This document shows positions 35,407-43,522 of a stretch of 64,000 bases of DNA, in pieces. This stretch comes from Escherichia phage KIT06: the sequence record OQ349392.1, one strand, 5' to 3'. Both the position numbers and the translations under genes were made by a program. How positions within the stretch are numbered: the stretch's first letter is position 1; each line of letters starts with the position of its first letter. The notes beneath the pieces are model-generated. The model made no database searches. It saw only the letters and a program-made list of their open reading frames with translations, and was not told the origin of the DNA.

Positions 35407-35479
35407 TGGGAATTAGCCAAGTTGGTAAGGCATAGCACTTTGACTGCTAGATGCAAAGGTTCGAGTCCTTTATTCCCAG
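35407..35479 (+). tRNA. tRNA-Gln (anticodon UUG)
   Basis: Cloverleaf folded by hand: acceptor tgggaat/attccca, anticodon loop ctTTGac, T-arm aaagg-ttcgagt-ccttt. Confidence 0.85.
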
Positions 35480-35480
35480 C

Positions 35481-35567
35481 GCGAGAATGGTCAAATTGGT
35501 AAAGGCACAGCACTTAAAATGCTGCGGAATGATTTCCTTGTGGGTTCGAGTCCCACTTCTCGCACCA
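35481..35567 (+). tRNA. tRNA-Leu (anticodon UAA), type II, CCA encoded
   Basis: Acceptor gcgagaa/ttctcgc, anticodon loop ctTAAaa, long variable arm. Confidence 0.85.
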
Positions 35568-35572
35568 AATTT

Positions 35573-35647
<75 letters not shown>

Positions 35648-35657
35648 ATTTAATTTA

Positions 35658-35731
35658 CTCCGTGTAGCTCAGTTTGGTAGAGCGTCTGCTTTGGGAGCAG
35701 AATGTCGCAGGTTCAAATCCTGCCGCGGAGA
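35658..35731 (+). tRNA. tRNA-Pro (anticodon UGG)
   Basis: Acceptor ctccgtg/cgcggag, anticodon loop ttTGGga, T-loop ttcaaat. Confidence 0.8.
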
Positions 35732-35733
35732 CT

Positions 35734-35823
35734 GGAGGCGTGGCAGAGTGGTTTAATGCACCGGTCTTGAAAACCGGCAGTCGCTCCGGCGACTCATAGG
35801 TTCAAATCCTATCGCCTCCGCCA
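35734..35823 (+). tRNA. tRNA-Ser (anticodon UGA), type II
   Basis: Acceptor ggaggcg/cgcctcc, anticodon loop ctTGAaa, long variable arm. Confidence 0.85.
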
Positions 35824-35828
35824 GTTTT

Positions 35829-35904
35829 GCTGATTTAGCTCAGTAGGTAGAGCAACTCACTTGTAATGAGAAGGTCGGCGGTTCGATTCCGTCAATCAGC
35901 ACCA
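35829..35904 (+). tRNA. tRNA-Thr (anticodon UGU)
   Basis: Acceptor gctgatt/aatcagc, anticodon loop ctTGTaa. Confidence 0.85.
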
Positions 35905-35905
35905 A

Positions 35906-35980
35906 GGCCCTGTAGCTGGAAGGTTCAAGCAAGCGACTCATAATCGCCAGATGGTGGTTCAATTCCACCCAGGGCCACCA
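35906..35980 (+). tRNA. tRNA with anticodon CAU (Ile by lysidine modification as in T4, or Met)
   Basis: Acceptor ggccctg/cagggcc, anticodon loop ctCATaa. Confidence 0.8.
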
Positions 35981-35989
35981 AATTAATTT

Positions 35990-36076
35990 GGGGAGTTATC
36001 CCGTAGAGGTAGCGGTGTGGACTGTAAATCCATTGTCATTGCGACTCGGGTGGTTCGACTCCATCACTCCCCACCA
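35990..36076 (+). tRNA. tRNA-Tyr (anticodon GUA), type II
   Basis: Acceptor ggggagt/actcccc, anticodon stem gtgga/tccat, loop ctGTAaa, long variable arm, T-loop ttcgact. Confidence 0.7.
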
Positions 36077-36080
36077 ATTT

Positions 36081-36155
36081 GGATGTGTAGCTCAATGGCA
36101 GAGCGATCGCCTGTTAAGCGATTGGTTATAGGTTCGAATCCTATCACGTCCGCCA
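36081..36155 (+). tRNA. tRNA-Asn (anticodon GUU)
   Basis: Acceptor ggatgtg/cacgtcc, anticodon stem atcgc/gcgat, loop ctGTTaa, T-loop ttcgaat. Confidence 0.75.
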
Positions 36156-36159
36156 AATC

Positions 36160-36235
36160 CGAGGCATAGCTCAGAAGGAAGAGCAAGGACCTTCTAAGTC
36201 CTAGGTCGTAGGTTCGATCCCTATTGCCTCGACCA
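36160..36235 (+). tRNA. tRNA-Arg (anticodon UCU)
   Basis: Acceptor cgaggca/tgcctcg, anticodon stem aggac/gtcct, loop ctTCTaa. Confidence 0.85.
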
Positions 36236-39661: not shown

Positions 39662-40146
39662 TTTTAAAAACTCGCTGGTATGATTTAGATGATGGGGACG
39701 ATGGCATTCCAGTTGATAGAGTTGACTGGAATGGCTGTTCCGAAGATATGAAAAATTTGTTAATTAGGGAGTTTAGAATGGGATATCAGCCAGTTAAGCC
39801 ATCTACTGCAACAGATGATAAGTTTGTATGTATTCAAAATGGCCGCGCTAAGTTAACGAACGCTGATTGGTTCACAGATAAAATTATGATTCTGTGGTAT
39901 ATTATTAGTCTTCCTGTGACATCATTCGTATTTTACTTTTTTATAAAAAATCCAATGGACAGAATAGGAGATTGGATTCTTTTAACCATACTTGTTAATA
40001 TTTTTACAGCAGCAATATTATCTGGGATATGGTACACGTTCATTGAAATGCCATGGCGGCTACGCAGACAACAAAAGATTTTTGATGAAAAGAAATATAC
40101 TCAAAATTTAAATAACTTTATCACTGAATGCAGGAAATTAAAATGA
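39658..40146 (+). CDS. membrane protein, tandem paralog family
   Basis: 162-aa ORF with hydrophobic segments; C-terminal ...LNNFITECRKLK. Confidence 0.6.
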   Translation: MILKTRWYDLDDGDDGIPVDRVDWNGCSEDMKNLLIREFRMGYQPVKPSTATDDKFVCIQNGRAKLTNADWFTDKIMILWYIISLPVTSFVFYFFIKNPMDRIGDWILLTILVNIFTAAILSGIWYTFIEMPWRLRRQQKIFDEKKYTQNLNNFITECRKLK

Positions 40147-40583
40147 AAACATTATCAGCTGGTATTATCTTTATGACAGAAGATAAAGATTTATTCATGG
40201 GACGGGTTACTGGTTCTCGTAAGCCTGGAATGATGGCACATCGCTGGGATATCCCAAAGGGCCGCGTAGAAAATTCTGATTTAAGCGCACTAGATGCAGC
40301 ACGAAGAGAATGTTTAGAAGAGACTGGTTTTAACAATTATAATCCAGACCTTCTAGAAGACCTAGGTGTATTTAAATATTCTAGTAATAAAGACTTACAT
40401 CTGTTTTATTATACGATTCCAGTAGAGCATGAGATGTTTAGAAATTGCCATTGCGAGTCTTATTTTGAAAATAAAGATGGCGTTATGATTCCAGAGATGG
40501 ATGCTTTTGCTCTTATTCCTCGTACTCAGTGGCAATATGTGATGGGTCCTTCACTTTACCGAATAATGAACAACCTCTTTTAA
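40143..40583 (+). CDS. nudE: Nudix hydrolase NudE (e.1)
   Basis: Nudix box GRVENSDLSALDAARRECLEETGF; track ORF starts at 40128, but the ATG at 40143 has the SD aggaaa. Confidence 0.8.
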   Translation: MKTLSAGIIFMTEDKDLFMGRVTGSRKPGMMAHRWDIPKGRVENSDLSALDAARRECLEETGFNNYNPDLLEDLGVFKYSSNKDLHLFYYTIPVEHEMFRNCHCESYFENKDGVMIPEMDAFALIPRTQWQYVMGPSLYRIMNNLF

Positions 40584-41114
<531 letters not shown>

Positions 41115-41117
41115 AGT

Positions 41118-41150
41118 TGTTTACTTTCTCCTAGAACTGTGATAGTATAT
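41118..41150 (+). promoter_or_regulatory. early promoter (GTTTAC ... gtGATAGTATAT)
   Basis: GTTTAC at 41118-41123 and -10 region at 41139-41150, upstream of ORF 41186. Confidence 0.55.
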
Positions 41151-41185
41151 TCATAGTTACTAATTAAAATATTTAAAGGAACCAT

Positions 41186-41503
41186 ATGAAAACGTTTAAA
41201 GAATTTATTGCAGAATCTGCCCAAGGACAACGTGTAGAAGGCGGTTATATCTGGATTGAACAAGTTGAGCCGCCAAGTCGCACTTCTACAGGTAAATGGA
41301 AAATTACTGTTGATGGTCCTGGTGGTAAACGTAGGACTCTTAAAGAAATTAATGGGTACTATGAAGAAGCTCTTTCGGATGCAGGAACTTACATGATGCA
41401 AATCATGATTAAAAACCCTGAAAACCGTTTTGCAGCTAGAGTTTTCCGACGCATCGGTAATAAACTTTATGACGCATACTCTAAAAACTTCCCTAAAGAA
41501 TAA
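41186..41503 (+). CDS. ipII: internal protein precursor, IPII-like
   Basis: 105-aa ORF with CTS MKTFKEFIAESAQ; assignment to ipII is by size and position. Confidence 0.65.
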   Translation: MKTFKEFIAESAQGQRVEGGYIWIEQVEPPSRTSTGKWKITVDGPGGKRRTLKEINGYYEEALSDAGTYMMQIMIKNPENRFAARVFRRIGNKLYDAYSKNFPKE

Positions 41504-41529
41504 CATGAATTAAAACAATAGGAACAAAA

Positions 41530-42108
41530 ATGAAAACGTATCAAGAATTTATTGCTGAAGCTTCTGTAGTAAAGGCCAAAGGCATTAATAAGGACGAGTG
41601 GAACTATCGTGGTGGAAACGGCTTTGACCCTAAAACAGCCCCTATTGAACGATACTTAGCTACAAAAGCTTCCGATTTTAAAGCTTTCGCTTGGGAAGGA
41701 CTTCGCTGGCGTACCGATTTAAATATTGAAGTTGACGGACTTAAATTTGGTCATATTCAAGATGTTGTTGCTAGTAACTTGGACGCAGCTTTTGTTAAAG
41801 CTGACGGTGACCTTCGTCGCTGGAATTTAAAACTATTCTCTAAACAGAAAGGCCCGGTGTTTGTGCCTAAAGCTGGTAAATGGGTTATTGATAATAAATT
41901 AGCTAAGGCTGTCAACTACGCTGGCCTTGAATTCGCCAAGCATAAATCATCATGGAAAGGTCTTGATGCAATGGCCTTCCGTAAAGAATTTGCTGATGTT
42001 ATGGCTAAAGGCGGCTTTAAGGCAGAAATAGATACCTCTAAAGGTACGTTTAAGGACGCTAATGTTCAGTACGCTTATGCCGTTGCTAATGCAGCCCGTG
42101 GTAATTAA
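41530..42108 (+). CDS. ipIII: internal protein precursor, IPIII-like
   Basis: 192-aa ORF with CTS MKTYQEFIAEAS; assignment to ipIII is by size and position. Confidence 0.65.
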   Translation: MKTYQEFIAEASVVKAKGINKDEWNYRGGNGFDPKTAPIERYLATKASDFKAFAWEGLRWRTDLNIEVDGLKFGHIQDVVASNLDAAFVKADGDLRRWNLKLFSKQKGPVFVPKAGKWVIDNKLAKAVNYAGLEFAKHKSSWKGLDAMAFRKEFADVMAKGGFKAEIDTSKGTFKDANVQYAYAVANAARGN

Positions 42109-42110
42109 TA

Positions 42111-42128
42111 AGGCCGATACTTAGGCCT
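42111..42128 (+). terminator. hairpin after the ipIII-like gene
   Basis: aggcc-gatactta-ggcct stem-loop immediately after the stop; weak T-tract. Confidence 0.4.
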
Positions 42129-42285
42129 ATTTACATTCAAATAACATGGGAACAACCTGGACCTCATGATTCTATGAGGGATTCCCGCCAACCTGTAATA
42201 AGGTCGAGCCCAAGTGCGGTAATGGGTAAATACAGAAATGGACAATTCATGCGCCATGGAATGGCCCAAATTTAGAGAGAATAAA

Positions 42286-42825
42286 ATGAGAACATTTTTA
42301 ACTGGTCCTTATCTATCCCTGATGAATGCTTTTACACACCATTCTGATGCTAGAGTAGAAGAAATTTGTAAAAACGATTATATCCCACCATTTGAAGACT
42401 TACTCAAACAGTATTGTACACTTCGTTTAGATGGTGGCAGACAATCTGGTAAATCAACTGCAGTAACTAATTTTGCCGCTAATTGGTTATATGATGGTGG
42501 AACAGTTATTGTTCTTTCTAATACTTCAGCTTATGCTAAAATTTCTGCGGGCCACATTAAAAAAGAATTTTCTCGTTATTCTAGCGATGATATTCGATTC
42601 CGCTTATTTACCGATTCTGTCCGTAGTTTTATCGGTAATAAAGGAAGCAAGTTCAGAGGTTTATTGCTTTCGCGAATTTTGTATATAATTGATGATCCTG
42701 TTAAAGCTCCTGATATGGATAAAATTTACGATATTCATATTGAAACTGTGCACCACTGTTGCAATAGTAAATGCTGCATTGGTGGTATTACTCGTCCACA
42801 GTTTTTCATAATCGGAATGCAATGA
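42286..42825 (+). CDS. P-loop NTPase-like protein of unknown function
   Basis: Track ORF 42238..42825; ATG at 42286 with SD gagagaataaa; Walker A-like GGRQSGKST. Confidence 0.6.
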   Translation: MRTFLTGPYLSLMNAFTHHSDARVEEICKNDYIPPFEDLLKQYCTLRLDGGRQSGKSTAVTNFAANWLYDGGTVIVLSNTSAYAKISAGHIKKEFSRYSSDDIRFRLFTDSVRSFIGNKGSKFRGLLLSRILYIIDDPVKAPDMDKIYDIHIETVHHCCNSKCCIGGITRPQFFIIGMQ

Positions 42826-43151
42826 TGACAGACACGCAACTTTTCGAATATCTTTATTTTTCGCCAAAAACTGTTAAAAATAAATTGGTGAATCATTTTG
42901 AAATTTTGGCAAATAACAACGTCTTGAGCGAATTTTATCCTAAGCAATACAAACTACAAAAAGGTGTATTCAAAGGATGCAGAGTTTTGTGCACTGCTCC
43001 TAATGTAAGATTAATGAATAAAATTCCATATTTTACCATGGAATTTATTGATGGGCCTTTTAAAGGACTAATCACGCAGAGTTTAATGGCATATGATTCT
43101 GAGCCATTTTTAATTAAAGAGCAATCTTGGATAAATTTATTTTCTAATTGA
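42822..43151 (+). CDS. hypothetical protein
   Basis: Track ORF 42771..43151; ATG at 42822 overlapping the previous stop (ATGATGA); [13 protein letters not shown]... Confidence 0.55.
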
Positions 43152-43159
43152 GAGGTTAT

Positions 43160-43522
43160 ATGAAAGCATATCAAATTCTTGAAGGCACGCATAAAGGTAC
43201 TATTTATTTTGAAGACGGTATTCAAGCACGAATTATTGTCTCTAAAACTTTTAAAGAGGACTCTTTTGTAGACCCAGAAATTTTCTATGGTTTGCATGCC
43301 CGTGAAATTGAAATTGAAACACAACCTACAGTTAAAATTGAAGGTGGTCAACACCTGAACGTTAACGTTCTGCGTCGTGAAACTCTGGAAGATGCAGTTA
43401 AGCATCCGGAAAAATATCCGCAGCTGACCATCCGTGTATCCGGTTATGCAGTTCGCTTTAACTCTCTGACTCCGGAACAGCAGCGCGACGTTATCGCTCG
43501 TACCTTTACTGAGAGTCTGTAA
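43160..43522 (+). CDS. autonomous glycyl-radical cofactor (GrcA/YfiD-like; T4 Y06I-type)
   Basis: ATG 43160 with SD gagagg; C-terminal about 60 aa ([60 protein letters not shown]) matches the glycyl-radical domain of E. coli GrcA/PflB as I recall it. Confidence 0.85.

What the first reader, a model, noticed from the sequence alone, without database searches (positions are those of the whole stretch)
42286..42825. Uncharacterised P-loop NTPase in the early region
ORF with Walker A-like GGRQSGKST and a downstream hydrophobic strand plus Asp cluster (LLLSRILYIIDDPV) typical of a Walker B. It does not resemble known T4 replication or packaging ATPases that I recognise. Small standalone NTPases in phage early regions are frequently host-takeover or anti-defence factors.
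Basis: inference. Interest (0 to 1): 0.4.

Follow-up and report, generated by a model that had tools for sequence, protein, structure and literature searches.

The report
T4 vs.8: orphan terminase-like ATPase
The ORF is this phage's copy of T4 gene vs.8, a small ATP-binding protein descended from the DNA-packaging (terminase) ATPase and already published in 2026 as a trigger of the bacterial immune sensor Avs2; the more surprising thing is an unannotated, highly conserved pseudoknotted RNA directly upstream of it.

Summary
Window 42286-42825 (+) is a real 179-aa gene with an invariant Walker A (DGGRQSGK[ST]) and a Walker B (ILYIID-D/E).

It is the orthologue of T4 vs.8 (92.7% identical; phrog_1488). 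A family profile aligns residues 32-152 to gp17 (large terminase) residues 142-271 (hhalign 93%, E 2.6e-7), and gp17 structures are the top PDB hits.

[quoted passage not shown] The finding is therefore already known, and its role for the phage remains open.

- The window copy alone carries Asp in place of the catalytic Glu (E137D).
- vs.8 is translationally coupled to vs.7 in about 31 of 35 related loci.
- T4's 219-aa annotation of vs.8 is probably too long at the N-terminus.

That extra stretch (window 42148-42235) is a pseudoknotted RNA with strong covariation and no Rfam match. It also occurs in unrelated phages, mostly in tRNA gene clusters, and in metagenomes. Its function is unknown.

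The parts
42286..42825 (+). vs.8 coding sequence: 179 aa plus the TGA stop. It is a stand-alone terminase-ATPase-like P-loop protein.
   Evidence: ORF. The start is supported by an invariant M1. phrog_1488 match at E 1.7e-77. 92.7% identical to T4 vs.8.
42433..42459 (+). Walker A / P-loop GGRQSGKST (residues 50-58), of the terminase type with Arg-Gln before the GK[ST].
   Evidence: Invariant D49-K56. Aligns to gp17 S161-RQLGKT-167.
42655..42660 (+). Invariant R124-G125, corresponding to the 'RG' of gp17 ...DAVRGNSF..., one strand before the Walker B.
   Evidence: Invariant columns. Aligned to the gp17 RG.
42676..42696 (+). Walker B strand ILYIIDD (residues 131-137). D137 sits where all other homologues have the catalytic Glu.
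   Evidence: Aligns to gp17 MIYID-E256. It is a beta-strand in the model.
42802..42822 (+). C-terminal strand FFIIGMQ (residues 173-179). It occupies the position of the gp17 IIITTTP coupling motif, but the Thr triplet is replaced. Q179 is the invariant last residue.
   Evidence: Invariant F173, G177 and Q179. Strand E173-176 in the model. The positional equivalence to the gp17 C-motif is inferred by eye from the gp17 sequence shown.
42822..43151 (+). vs.7 (109 aa; phrog_2049; PF26834 by precomputed annotation). Its ATG overlaps the vs.8 stop codon (CAATGATG), which indicates translational coupling.
   Evidence: The overlap, or a TAATG junction, and a vs.7 homologue are conserved in about 31 of 35 loci.
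42148..42235 (+). Conserved pseudoknotted RNA ('module A').
- Helix a: 42148-52 with 42182-86.
- Pseudoknot helix b: 42157-59 with 42233-35.
- Hairpin P2: 42162-67 with 42174-79.
- Helix d: 42188-90 with 42223-25.
- Hairpin e: 42191-94 with 42201-04.
- Hairpin f: 42208-09 with 42216-17.
It is not coding here.
   Evidence: Covariation. Model R1 scores 74.7 bits, E 1.3e-15. No Rfam match. In T4 this stretch is annotated as the N-terminus of vs.8.
42238..42267 (+). 'Module B' of the vs.8 leader: AUGGAC followed by hairpin GCCA-UGGAA-UGGC (42253-42265). It presents two GGA motifs about 18 nt apart.
   Evidence: Conserved upstream of vs.8 even where module A is displaced. The stem covaries: GGCA/UGCC in L016 and GACA/UGUC in L035.
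42275..42279 (+). Shine-Dalgarno-like GAGAG, 6 nt before the vs.8 ATG.
   Evidence: Read from the sequence. A purine-rich block sits at the same place in the homologous loci.
42111..42128 (+). Terminator-like hairpin just after the ipIII stop. It marks the left border of the vs.8 leader region.

Best explanation
Shown: the ORF is the orthologue of T4 vs.8. It is a stand-alone, truncated paralogue of the ATPase core (N-subdomain I) of the large terminase gp17. It keeps these parts:
- the strand before the P-loop;
- the terminase-type Walker A (GRQSGK[ST]);
- the RG motif;
- the Walker B, with a catalytic Glu in the family;
- a final strand.

It has lost ATPase subdomain II, the TTT coupling motif and the whole nuclease domain. 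It therefore cannot be a packaging motor on its own.

Inferred: it binds ATP at the P-loop, and in most phages hydrolyses it. It is made in fixed proportion with the small protein vs.7, whose start codon overlaps its stop, and probably works as a vs.8-vs.7 pair.

Published: because it presents a terminase-ATPase-like, ATP-loaded surface, it is recognised by the terminase sensor Avs2, and co-expression with EcAvs2 is toxic.

Most likely but unproven: its benefit to the phage lies in phage-host conflict, as an early-expressed terminase-like protein that engages or diverts host factors that bind terminase-type ATPases. It sits in a block of counter-defence genes. In this particular phage the catalytic Glu is Asp (E137D), so this copy may bind nucleotide but hydrolyse it poorly.
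For: Identity:
- phrog_1488 at E 1.7e-77.
- Synteny with T4 vs.8-vs.7-vs.6.
- 166 of 179 residues identical to T4 vs.8.

Terminase homology:
- PHROG terminase family phrog_2 at 6e-5.
- hhalign of the 45-sequence profile against gp17: probability 93.4%, E 2.6e-7, vs.8 32-152 aligned to gp17 142-271.
- PDB profile search: top three hits are gp17 3ezk, 2o0h and 3cpe at E 2.8e-6 to 1.8e-5, and a Thermus-phage terminase also appears.
- 18 of 45 members give sub-threshold Terminase_6N matches.
- PMC13601566 reports the same homology, Walker A/B conservation, an AF3 model in the Avs2 pocket (ipTM 0.84) and toxicity with EcAvs2.

Fold: confident model (pLDDT 82) of a five-stranded RecA/ASCE sheet. The nearest folds are helicase RecA domains and the phi29 packaging ATPase.

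Selection on catalytic residues: invariant GGRQSGK, R113, R124-G125 and D/E-E-P across genera at 34-44% identity.

Coupling to vs.7.

Conflict context: vs.3 is the TadIV-1 sponge. The authors of PMC13601566 themselves suggest that non-terminase Avs2 activators may be anti-defence proteins.
Against: - No experiment shows ATP binding, ATP hydrolysis, a vs.8-vs.7 complex or any anti-defence activity.
- The only phenotype, Avs2 activation, is harmful to the phage. It was obtained by co-expression, not during infection.
- Strict conservation of the catalytic Glu argues for a true enzyme rather than a passive mimic. Conversely, the E137D allele here shows that at least one circulating phage tolerates its loss.
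- Neither PADLOC nor NCBIfam recognises it.
- Guilt by association in a hyperplastic region is weak evidence.
- The vs.7 structure model was too poor to give any clue.
Confidence: 0.6

Rival explanations
1. vs.8 is a working enzyme of phage nucleic-acid metabolism. It would be a minimal one-domain ATPase that, together with vs.7 or as an oligomer, remodels or translocates DNA or RNA during early infection. Its recognition by Avs2 would be incidental.
For: - The catalytic set is complete and invariant in the family: Walker A Lys, Walker B Asp, catalytic Glu and two invariant Arg that could act as fingers.
- Fold neighbours are helicase RecA domains, RecD, Dda, UvsW and the phi29 packaging ATPase.
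- It is coupled to a conserved partner.
Against: - There is only one RecA-like domain, and no recognisable nucleic-acid-binding or second motor domain.
- TM-scores to helicases are modest, 0.4-0.53.
- T4 genetics has not flagged the gene as essential (general knowledge).
- The E137D allele in this phage suggests hydrolysis is dispensable at least here.
Confidence: 0.22
2. vs.8 modulates the phage's own packaging machinery. As a gp17 ATPase-core look-alike made early, it would bind gp16, gp20 or gp17 and delay or tune terminase assembly.
For: It is homologous to exactly the gp17 region that carries the ATPase centre. It is expressed from the early region, whereas gp17 is late (context; T4 timing is general knowledge).
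Against: - Nothing here tests an interaction.
- The family lacks the gp17 N-terminal region and subdomain II.
- The gene lies far from genes 16, 17 and 20.
- The family is restricted to T4-like phages, while their terminases are universal.
Confidence: 0.1
3. One reading: a generic P-loop NTPase unrelated to the known T4 replication and packaging ATPases.
For: A single-sequence Pfam scan gives only sub-threshold generic AAA hits. Pairwise BLAST to gp17 is not significant.
Against: Profile-level comparisons single out gp17 specifically, as does PMC13601566.
Confidence: 0.05
4. vs.8 is a decaying remnant of a duplicated terminase gene with no function.
For: It is truncated relative to gp17. The catalytic Glu is replaced in this window.
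Against: - The ORF is intact, with constant length and invariant motifs, in more than 1000 phage records across several genera down to 34% identity.
- Translational coupling to vs.7 is conserved.
Confidence: 0.03

Closest known systems
T4 gp17 large terminase, N-terminal ATPase subdomain I (PDB 2o0h, 3cpe; RB49 3ezk)
   Same: - Terminase-type Walker A with Arg-Gln (GRQSGKS against SRQLGKT).
- An RG motif one strand before the Walker B.
- hhIIDE followed by Pro.
- The same order of strands and helices.
The profile alignment covers vs.8 32-152 against gp17 142-271.
   Different: - 179 aa against 610 aa.
- No N-terminal region, no subdomain II and no nuclease domain.
- The TTT coupling motif is replaced by IGMQ at the C-terminus.
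- It is an early-region gene next to ipIII and vs.7 rather than a late gene next to genes 16 and 20.
- It falls below Pfam's Terminase_6N threshold (14.4 against 22 bits).
Ksap1 / Ksap2, the non-terminase activators of Avs2 (PMC13601566)
   Same: They are small, lineage-restricted phage proteins with a central sheet and flanking helices, predicted to sit in the terminase pocket of Avs2. They are toxic with Avs2 on co-expression, and their function for the phage is unknown.
   Different: vs.8 is a true sequence homologue of the terminase ATPase, with Walker motifs and a predicted bridging ATP. It is restricted to T4-like phages. Its role as a trigger during infection has not been shown. Membership in the Ksap families was not tested here.
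RecA-like domain 1 of SF1/SF2 helicases and the phi29 gp16 packaging ATPase N-domain
   Same: ASCE P-loop fold. Foldseek probabilities are 0.9-1.0 to DSH9, RecD, Dda, UvsW, NS3 and phi29 5hd9.
   Different: TM-scores are low (0.4-0.53) and identity is 9-18%. There is no second RecA domain and no helicase motifs. The resemblance is at the level of fold class only.
For the upstream RNA: HDV-like (including 'theta') self-cleaving ribozymes, and GOLLD/ROOL RNAs
   Same: - The order of strands (a5'-b5'-hairpin-a3'-domain-b3') is the nested double-pseudoknot order of HDV-like ribozymes.
- Like theta ribozymes, GOLLD and ROOL, it occurs in phages close to tRNA genes (the properties of those families come from general knowledge).
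   Different: - No conserved short P3/L3, no P1.1 and no conserved C in the junction that would hold the catalytic cytosine.
- The invariant nucleotides lie in the domain equivalent to the dispensable P4.
- No match to any Rfam model.
- About 90-110 nt, against 600-800 nt for GOLLD and ROOL.

Membership tests
T4 vs.8 family (phrog_1488) | Full-length sequence match and conserved position upstream of vs.7 and vs.6 | tested here: met
   E 1.7e-77 over 3-179 of 177 profile positions. 92.7% identity to T4 vs.8. Synteny.
Large terminase (TerL, T4-type; Pfam Terminase_6N + Terminase_6C) | Terminase-type Walker A [G/S]RQxGK[T/S] | tested here: met
   GGRQSGKS aligned to gp17 SRQLGKT.
Large terminase (TerL, T4-type; Pfam Terminase_6N + Terminase_6C) | Walker B Asp followed by the catalytic Glu (gp17 D255-E256) | tested here: inconclusive
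   The family has IIDE or IIEE. This window has IIDD, with Glu replaced by Asp.
Large terminase (TerL, T4-type; Pfam Terminase_6N + Terminase_6C) | Score above Pfam's gathering threshold for Terminase_6N | tested here: not met
   14.4 bits against a cut-off of 22. The best family member reaches E 1.4e-4, still sub-threshold.
Large terminase (TerL, T4-type; Pfam Terminase_6N + Terminase_6C) | ATPase subdomain II and the TTT-type coupling (C) motif | tested here: not met
   The protein ends at residue 179 with FFIIGMQ.
Large terminase (TerL, T4-type; Pfam Terminase_6N + Terminase_6C) | C-terminal RNase H-like nuclease domain | tested here: not met
   No sequence follows the ATPase core. The next ORF, vs.7, has no nuclease family match.
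Large terminase (TerL, T4-type; Pfam Terminase_6N + Terminase_6C) | Late-gene context next to the small terminase and portal genes | tested here: not met
   It lies between ipIII and vs.7 in the early region. Genes 16, 17 and 20 are about 32 kb away in T4.
Non-terminase activators of Avs2 | Toxicity on co-expression with Avs2, or binding in the Avs2 sensor pocket | not testable with these tools
   Reported for T4 vs.8 in PMC13601566. The window allele differs at 13 of 179 residues.
Any Rfam 15 family (for the upstream RNA) | Covariance-model match at E <= 1 | tested here: not met
   No match over the element in the window, in 10 T4-like loci or in 12 non-T4 loci.
HDV-like / theta ribozymes (for the upstream RNA) | Nested double pseudoknot with a short P3/L3, a P1.1 and a conserved catalytic C in J4/2 | tested here: not met
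   The strand order fits. However, the segment between b5' and a3' is 6-60 nt with no conserved 3-bp P3. The junction before b3' varies (GUUUACAU, GUUUAAUU, GUU, GUAAAUA) with no conserved C.

The most novel reading that the evidence does not exclude
The roughly 90-110-nt element directly upstream of vs.8 (window 42148-42235) may be a previously undescribed class of phage structured RNA. In the T4 reference it is hidden inside the over-long vs.8 annotation.

Its fold is a compact pseudoknot: helices a and b cross, and a small d/e/f domain carries about 25 near-invariant nucleotides, CCUGUAAYAAGGUCNAG...GGUAA.

It is conserved from T4-like phages to unrelated phages, where it sits inside tRNA gene clusters, sometimes as a discrete unit ended by a terminator or closed by a long outer stem. 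Such an architecture suggests a stable non-coding RNA or a small ribozyme or processing element, rather than an ordinary mRNA leader.
Probability: 0.45. Interest if true: 0.75.

Novelty: already known. Interest (0 to 1): 0.35.

Why it matters
For the finding as given, very little is new. vs.8 is a catalogued T4 gene, and its terminase-like ATPase nature and Avs2 activation were published in August 2026.

What remains open is why T4-like phages keep an early, truncated copy of their packaging ATPase that a host sensor can detect. Three details found here make that question easier to test:
- the conserved coupling to vs.7;
- the strict conservation of the catalytic Glu;
- a natural E137D allele.

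The by-product may matter more. The reference annotation of T4 vs.8 appears to translate through a conserved pseudoknotted RNA. That RNA has compensatory changes in every long-range helix, no Rfam family, and relatives in tRNA clusters of unrelated phages and in many metagenomes. If it is new, it adds a widespread phage RNA class of unknown function in the best-studied phage.

Tried and rejected
- **Single-sequence scans.** Pfam, NCBIfam and PADLOC gave only sub-threshold generic AAA or PtuA hits and were uninformative.
- **First PDB profile search.** The 18-sequence alignment did not reach gp17. It needed the 45-sequence alignment.
- **Pairwise BLAST.** vs.8 against gp17 was not significant.
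- **vs.7.** Two homologue searches returned only 10 proteins. The AlphaFold model had pLDDT 55, so I did not run a fold search on it.
- **Promoter idea.** I checked whether the upstream element is a sigma-70 promoter. No promoter-like site lies between ipIII and vs.8, only a terminator-like hairpin at 42111-42128.
- **Thermodynamic signal.** The MFE z-score of the window copy is 0.30, which is unremarkable. The evidence for structure is comparative, not energetic.
- **My own complementarity tests.** The 'self versus non-self' test with wide windows was underpowered: helix a 102/2000, helix b 632/2000 and helix d 0/2000 permutations. A position-constrained version for helix b gave 39/5000, but its parser failed on one sequence class. 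I replaced these with column-wise counts.
- **Known RNA classes.** I rejected HDV-like ribozyme, twister, tRNA-like/T-loop, RNase P fragment and group I intron fragment. The grounds were my reading of the motifs plus the absence of Rfam hits.
- **Riboswitch reading.** I consider it unlikely, because the element lies upstream of, downstream of or between tRNA genes with no fixed relation to an ORF.
- **Literature.** Searches for a T4 non-coding RNA at denV/ipIII returned nothing relevant. The 10,006-candidate catalogue of PMC10690425 could not be checked for overlap.
- **Pattern false positives.** Coding repeats in L072, L081 and L104 matched the DNA pattern but were correctly not hit by the covariance model.

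Full report
**1. What is at the coordinates.**
Window 42286-42825 (+) is an ORF of 179 codons plus stop. An in-frame upstream ATG at 42238 would give 195 aa. However, in an alignment of 18 homologues down to 39% identity, the Met of MRTFLTGPYLSLMNAF is invariant and whatever precedes it is not conserved. The gene therefore starts at 42286, 6 nt after a GAGAG Shine-Dalgarno-like block.

GGRQSGKST is residues 50-58, and D49-K56 is invariant. An AlphaFold model built on the alignment is confident (pLDDT 82, pTM 0.83). It shows a five-stranded P-loop sheet with the P-loop after strand 1 and the acidic pair at the end of strand 4.

**2. Which gene it is.**
The surroundings are T4-like:
- nudE at 40128-40583;
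- lysozyme e at 40620-41114;
- an internal-protein-like ORF at 41186-41503;
- ipIII at 41530-42108;
- the ORF in question, followed by vs.7 and the GrcA-like vs.6 (Gly_radical, E 2.3e-18).

The DNA is 97% identical to Tequatrovirus genomes. Annotated relatives and T4 itself label the gene vs.8, described as an 'uncharacterized 25.0 kDa protein in regB-denV intergenic region'. The protein matches phrog_1488 over its full length (E 1.7e-77) and is 92.7% identical to T4 vs.8.

The family is small and phage-restricted. It has 1009 phage records, all from T4-like phages of enterobacteria. An exhaustive search of 1.84 billion cluster representatives finds 50 proteins, nearly all 130-190 aa.

**3. 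What kind of NTPase.**
Single-sequence scans give only weak hints: Terminase_6N at E 0.029 and the PHROG terminase family at 6e-5. Fold searches return the generic ASCE/RecA class, namely helicase domain 1 of RecD, Dda, UvsW and NS3 and the phi29 packaging ATPase, at TM 0.4-0.53. They also return many small uncharacterised proteins of T4-like and jumbo phages.

After adding the remote homologues (45 sequences), the signal becomes specific:
- hhalign against T4 gp17 gives probability 93.4%, E 2.6e-7, aligning vs.8 32-152 with gp17 142-271.
- The profile's three best PDB hits are gp17 structures 3ezk, 2o0h and 3cpe (E 2.8e-6 to 1.8e-5), with another phage terminase further down.
- 18 of 45 members touch Terminase_6N below threshold.

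The alignment pairs GGRQSGKS with the gp17 Walker A SRQLGKT. It pairs R124-G125...ILYIIDEP with [19 protein letters not shown], which contains the gp17 Walker B and catalytic E256. By eye, the final strand FFVIGMQ sits where gp17 has IIITTTP.

So vs.8 is a truncated paralogue of the terminase ATPase core. It lacks subdomain II, the coupling motif and the nuclease, and it is not a terminase (see the membership table).

**4. What is already published.**
PMC13601566 (Nat Commun, 3 Aug 2026) screened T4 proteins in silico against the immune sensor EcAvs2 and found vs.8, which it calls 'an uncharacterized ATPase-like protein'. It reports:
- homology to the T4 terminase ATPase domain with conserved Walker A and B motifs;
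- high structural similarity;
- an AF3 complex with ipTM 0.84 and a bridging ATP;
- toxicity on co-expression with EcAvs2.

The paper states that the role of vs.8 during infection and its function for the phage are unknown, and it suggests that such activators might be anti-defence proteins. PMC13243611 shows that the neighbouring gene vs.3 is TadIV-1, a sponge against type IV Thoeris.

The statement that it does not resemble T4 packaging ATPases is wrong.

(a) Every homologue read has Glu at the catalytic position, as D-E or, in one clade, E-E. The window alone has Asp, in IIDDP. Thirteen residues differ from T4, and this is one of them. From general knowledge of gp17, where E256 is the catalytic carboxylate, this allele may be hydrolysis-impaired. 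That is inference, not a result.

(b) The vs.8 stop overlaps or abuts the start of a vs.7 homologue (CAATGATG or CAATAATG) in about 31 of 35 loci spanning the family. The two proteins are therefore likely made together and may act together. vs.7 gave no family beyond its own, and its model was unusable.

(c) The region is hyperplastic. Compared with T4, this phage lacks denV and ipII between ipIII and vs.8. Other relatives have an internal-protein gene inserted there.

**6. Mechanism: committed view.**
- Shown: fold class, terminase ancestry and conserved catalytic residues.
- Published: Avs2 activation on co-expression.
- Inferred: the protein binds ATP and usually hydrolyses it, works with vs.7, and serves the phage in conflict with the host rather than in packaging. 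It is early-expressed, lineage-restricted, sits among counter-defence genes and presents a terminase-like surface.

I give this composite view 0.6. The identity part is near certain, and the conflict-related role is around 0.4. The rivals are a genuine nucleic-acid enzyme (0.22), a modulator of the phage's own packaging machinery (0.1), an unrelated generic NTPase (0.05) and a dead remnant (0.03).

**7. The unexpected part: a conserved RNA in front of vs.8.**
The 177 nt between ipIII and vs.8 are richer in G+C than their surroundings. In T4 the same sequence (119 of 123 nt identical) follows denV directly and is annotated as the first 40 codons of a 219-aa vs.8. In the window that frame ends in a stop before the vs.8 ATG, and the sequences further upstream are unrelated.

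The element is present upstream of vs.8 in almost all 35 IMG/VR loci, including those where the protein is only 34-44% identical, and in some loci it occurs twice in tandem.

A 22-sequence alignment supports this order of strands:
- helix a (5');
- pseudoknot helix b (5');
- hairpin P2;
- helix a (3');
- helix d enclosing hairpins e and f;
- a junction;
- helix b (3').

Column-wise counts on that alignment:
- 89.3% of cells are paired, against 79.1% in shuffles and at most 48.5% when partners are slid.
- 13 pairs carry changes on both sides, against 6.7 in shuffles (0 of 500 shuffles reach it).
- The covariation score is 0.292 against 0.104 (0 of 500).
- In the pseudoknot helix, one pair shows CG, UA, AU and GC.

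Frequent G-U pairs indicate that the + strand, the strand of vs.8, is the one that folds.

A covariance model built from this alignment scores the window copy at 74.7 bits (42148-42239) and finds no other copy in the window.

**8. The RNA is not confined to T4-like phages.**
A degenerate pattern of the invariant core (CCTGTRANAAGGYCNAG N6-12 GRTAA) found 70 stretches in IMG/VR, many on contigs of 25-360 kb that are not T4-like. The model confirms these and rejects the coding false positives.

In those phages helices a, b and d have entirely different sequences but remain complementary. On the 37-hit model alignment:
- 91.2% of cells are paired;
- the covariation score is 0.413 against 0.109 (0 of 500);
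- all five pairs of helix a show three or four Watson-Crick types.
One caveat applies: that alignment is fitted to the model.

About 16 of 25 such loci have a tRNA gene on the same strand within 700 nt. In L097 the element starts 5 nt after a tRNA-Ser and is followed by an intrinsic terminator. In L061 it follows a lysozyme gene and is also followed by a terminator. In one group a long outer stem closes the whole element, as read.

Only one convincing copy, on a Pseudomonas megaplasmid, was found among 185,579 species-representative genomes. Of the 80 listed metagenome stretches that matched the pattern, 43 were confirmed by the model.

No Rfam 15 family matches the element in any context.

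The strand order is that of HDV-like ribozymes, but their defining details are absent (see the membership table). I could not check whether the element is among the 10,006 unnamed candidates of PMC10690425.

Its function is unknown. The contexts argue against a classical riboswitch and for a stable non-coding RNA or an RNA-processing element.

In T4-like phages the element is followed by a second conserved module: AUGGAC plus a GGA-loop hairpin. This module stays attached to the start of whichever gene comes next, vs.8 or an inserted internal-protein gene.

**9. Verdict.**
The finding itself is already known, so interest is 0.35.

The most novel reading not excluded is that the vs.8 leader contains a new, widespread class of phage structured RNA. 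The reference T4 annotation mistakes it for coding sequence.

I am about 0.9 confident that it is a real structured RNA family, and I give 0.45 to the full claim that it is also undescribed and functionally distinct.

Noticed in passing
window 42148-42235 (+); T4 NC_000866 about 64,790-64,935 (- strand); loci L003-L107, L125, L140-L219: A conserved pseudoknotted RNA lies directly upstream of vs.8. It shows strong covariation and has no Rfam match. It also occurs in tRNA gene clusters of unrelated phages and in metagenomes. Its function is unknown.
   Followed up: yes
window 42238-42267 (+): A second conserved leader module: AUGGAC plus hairpin GCCA-UGGAA-UGGC, giving two GGA motifs about 18 nt apart. 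The stem covaries (GGCA/UGCC, GACA/UGUC). It stays next to the start codon of vs.8 or of an inserted internal-protein gene (L054, L020-L024), even when the pseudoknot is displaced about 470 nt upstream. The spacing recalls CsrA-type sites (from memory only; not tested).
   Followed up: partly
T4 reference, L002 5254-5913 (- strand) = NC_000866 64253-64912: T4 vs.8 is annotated as 219 aa (25 kDa). The first 40 codons coincide with the conserved RNA element, are not conserved as protein, and in this window end in a stop before the vs.8 ATG (33-aa ORF 42174-42275). The true start is most likely the Met of MRTFLTG.
   Followed up: yes
window 42694-42696 (codon 137 of vs.8): GAT (Asp) sits where T4 and every other homologue examined have Glu, the residue aligned with the gp17 catalytic E256. 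It may be a natural hydrolysis-deficient allele.
   Followed up: partly
window 41115-42285 compared with T4 (L002): The gene content differs from T4. denV and ipII are absent between ipIII and vs.8, and an extra internal-protein-like ORF (41186-41503, phrog_3966, MKTFKEFIAES...) lies between e and ipIII. Other relatives carry different insertions at the same spot.
   Followed up: no
window 35407-36235 (+): A cluster of ten tRNA genes: Gln, Leu, Gly, Pro, Ser, Thr, Met/Ile(CAU), Tyr, Asn and Arg. By my recollection, T4 has eight.
   Followed up: no
L075 3624-3655 (- strand): A match to the Rfam abiF RNA motif above its gathering score (45.4 against 37 bits). It lies inside a phage tRNA cluster, about 450 nt upstream of that phage's copy of the new RNA element. 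It may be a phage-borne copy of an RNA associated with an abortive-infection system.
   Followed up: no
window 43148-43522 (+): vs.6 encodes a GrcA/YfiD-like autonomous glycyl-radical cofactor (Gly_radical, E 2.3e-18). It lies two genes downstream of vs.8 in the same apparent operon.
   Followed up: no
L069, L074, L083, L086, L096 (46-70-kb phage contigs): In this group the RNA element is enclosed by an additional outer helix (UUGUGAC...GUCACAA) and a further stem of about 11 bp (GUGCUCUUAUC...GGUAAGAGCAU). This suggests a discrete RNA of about 150 nt.
   Followed up: partly
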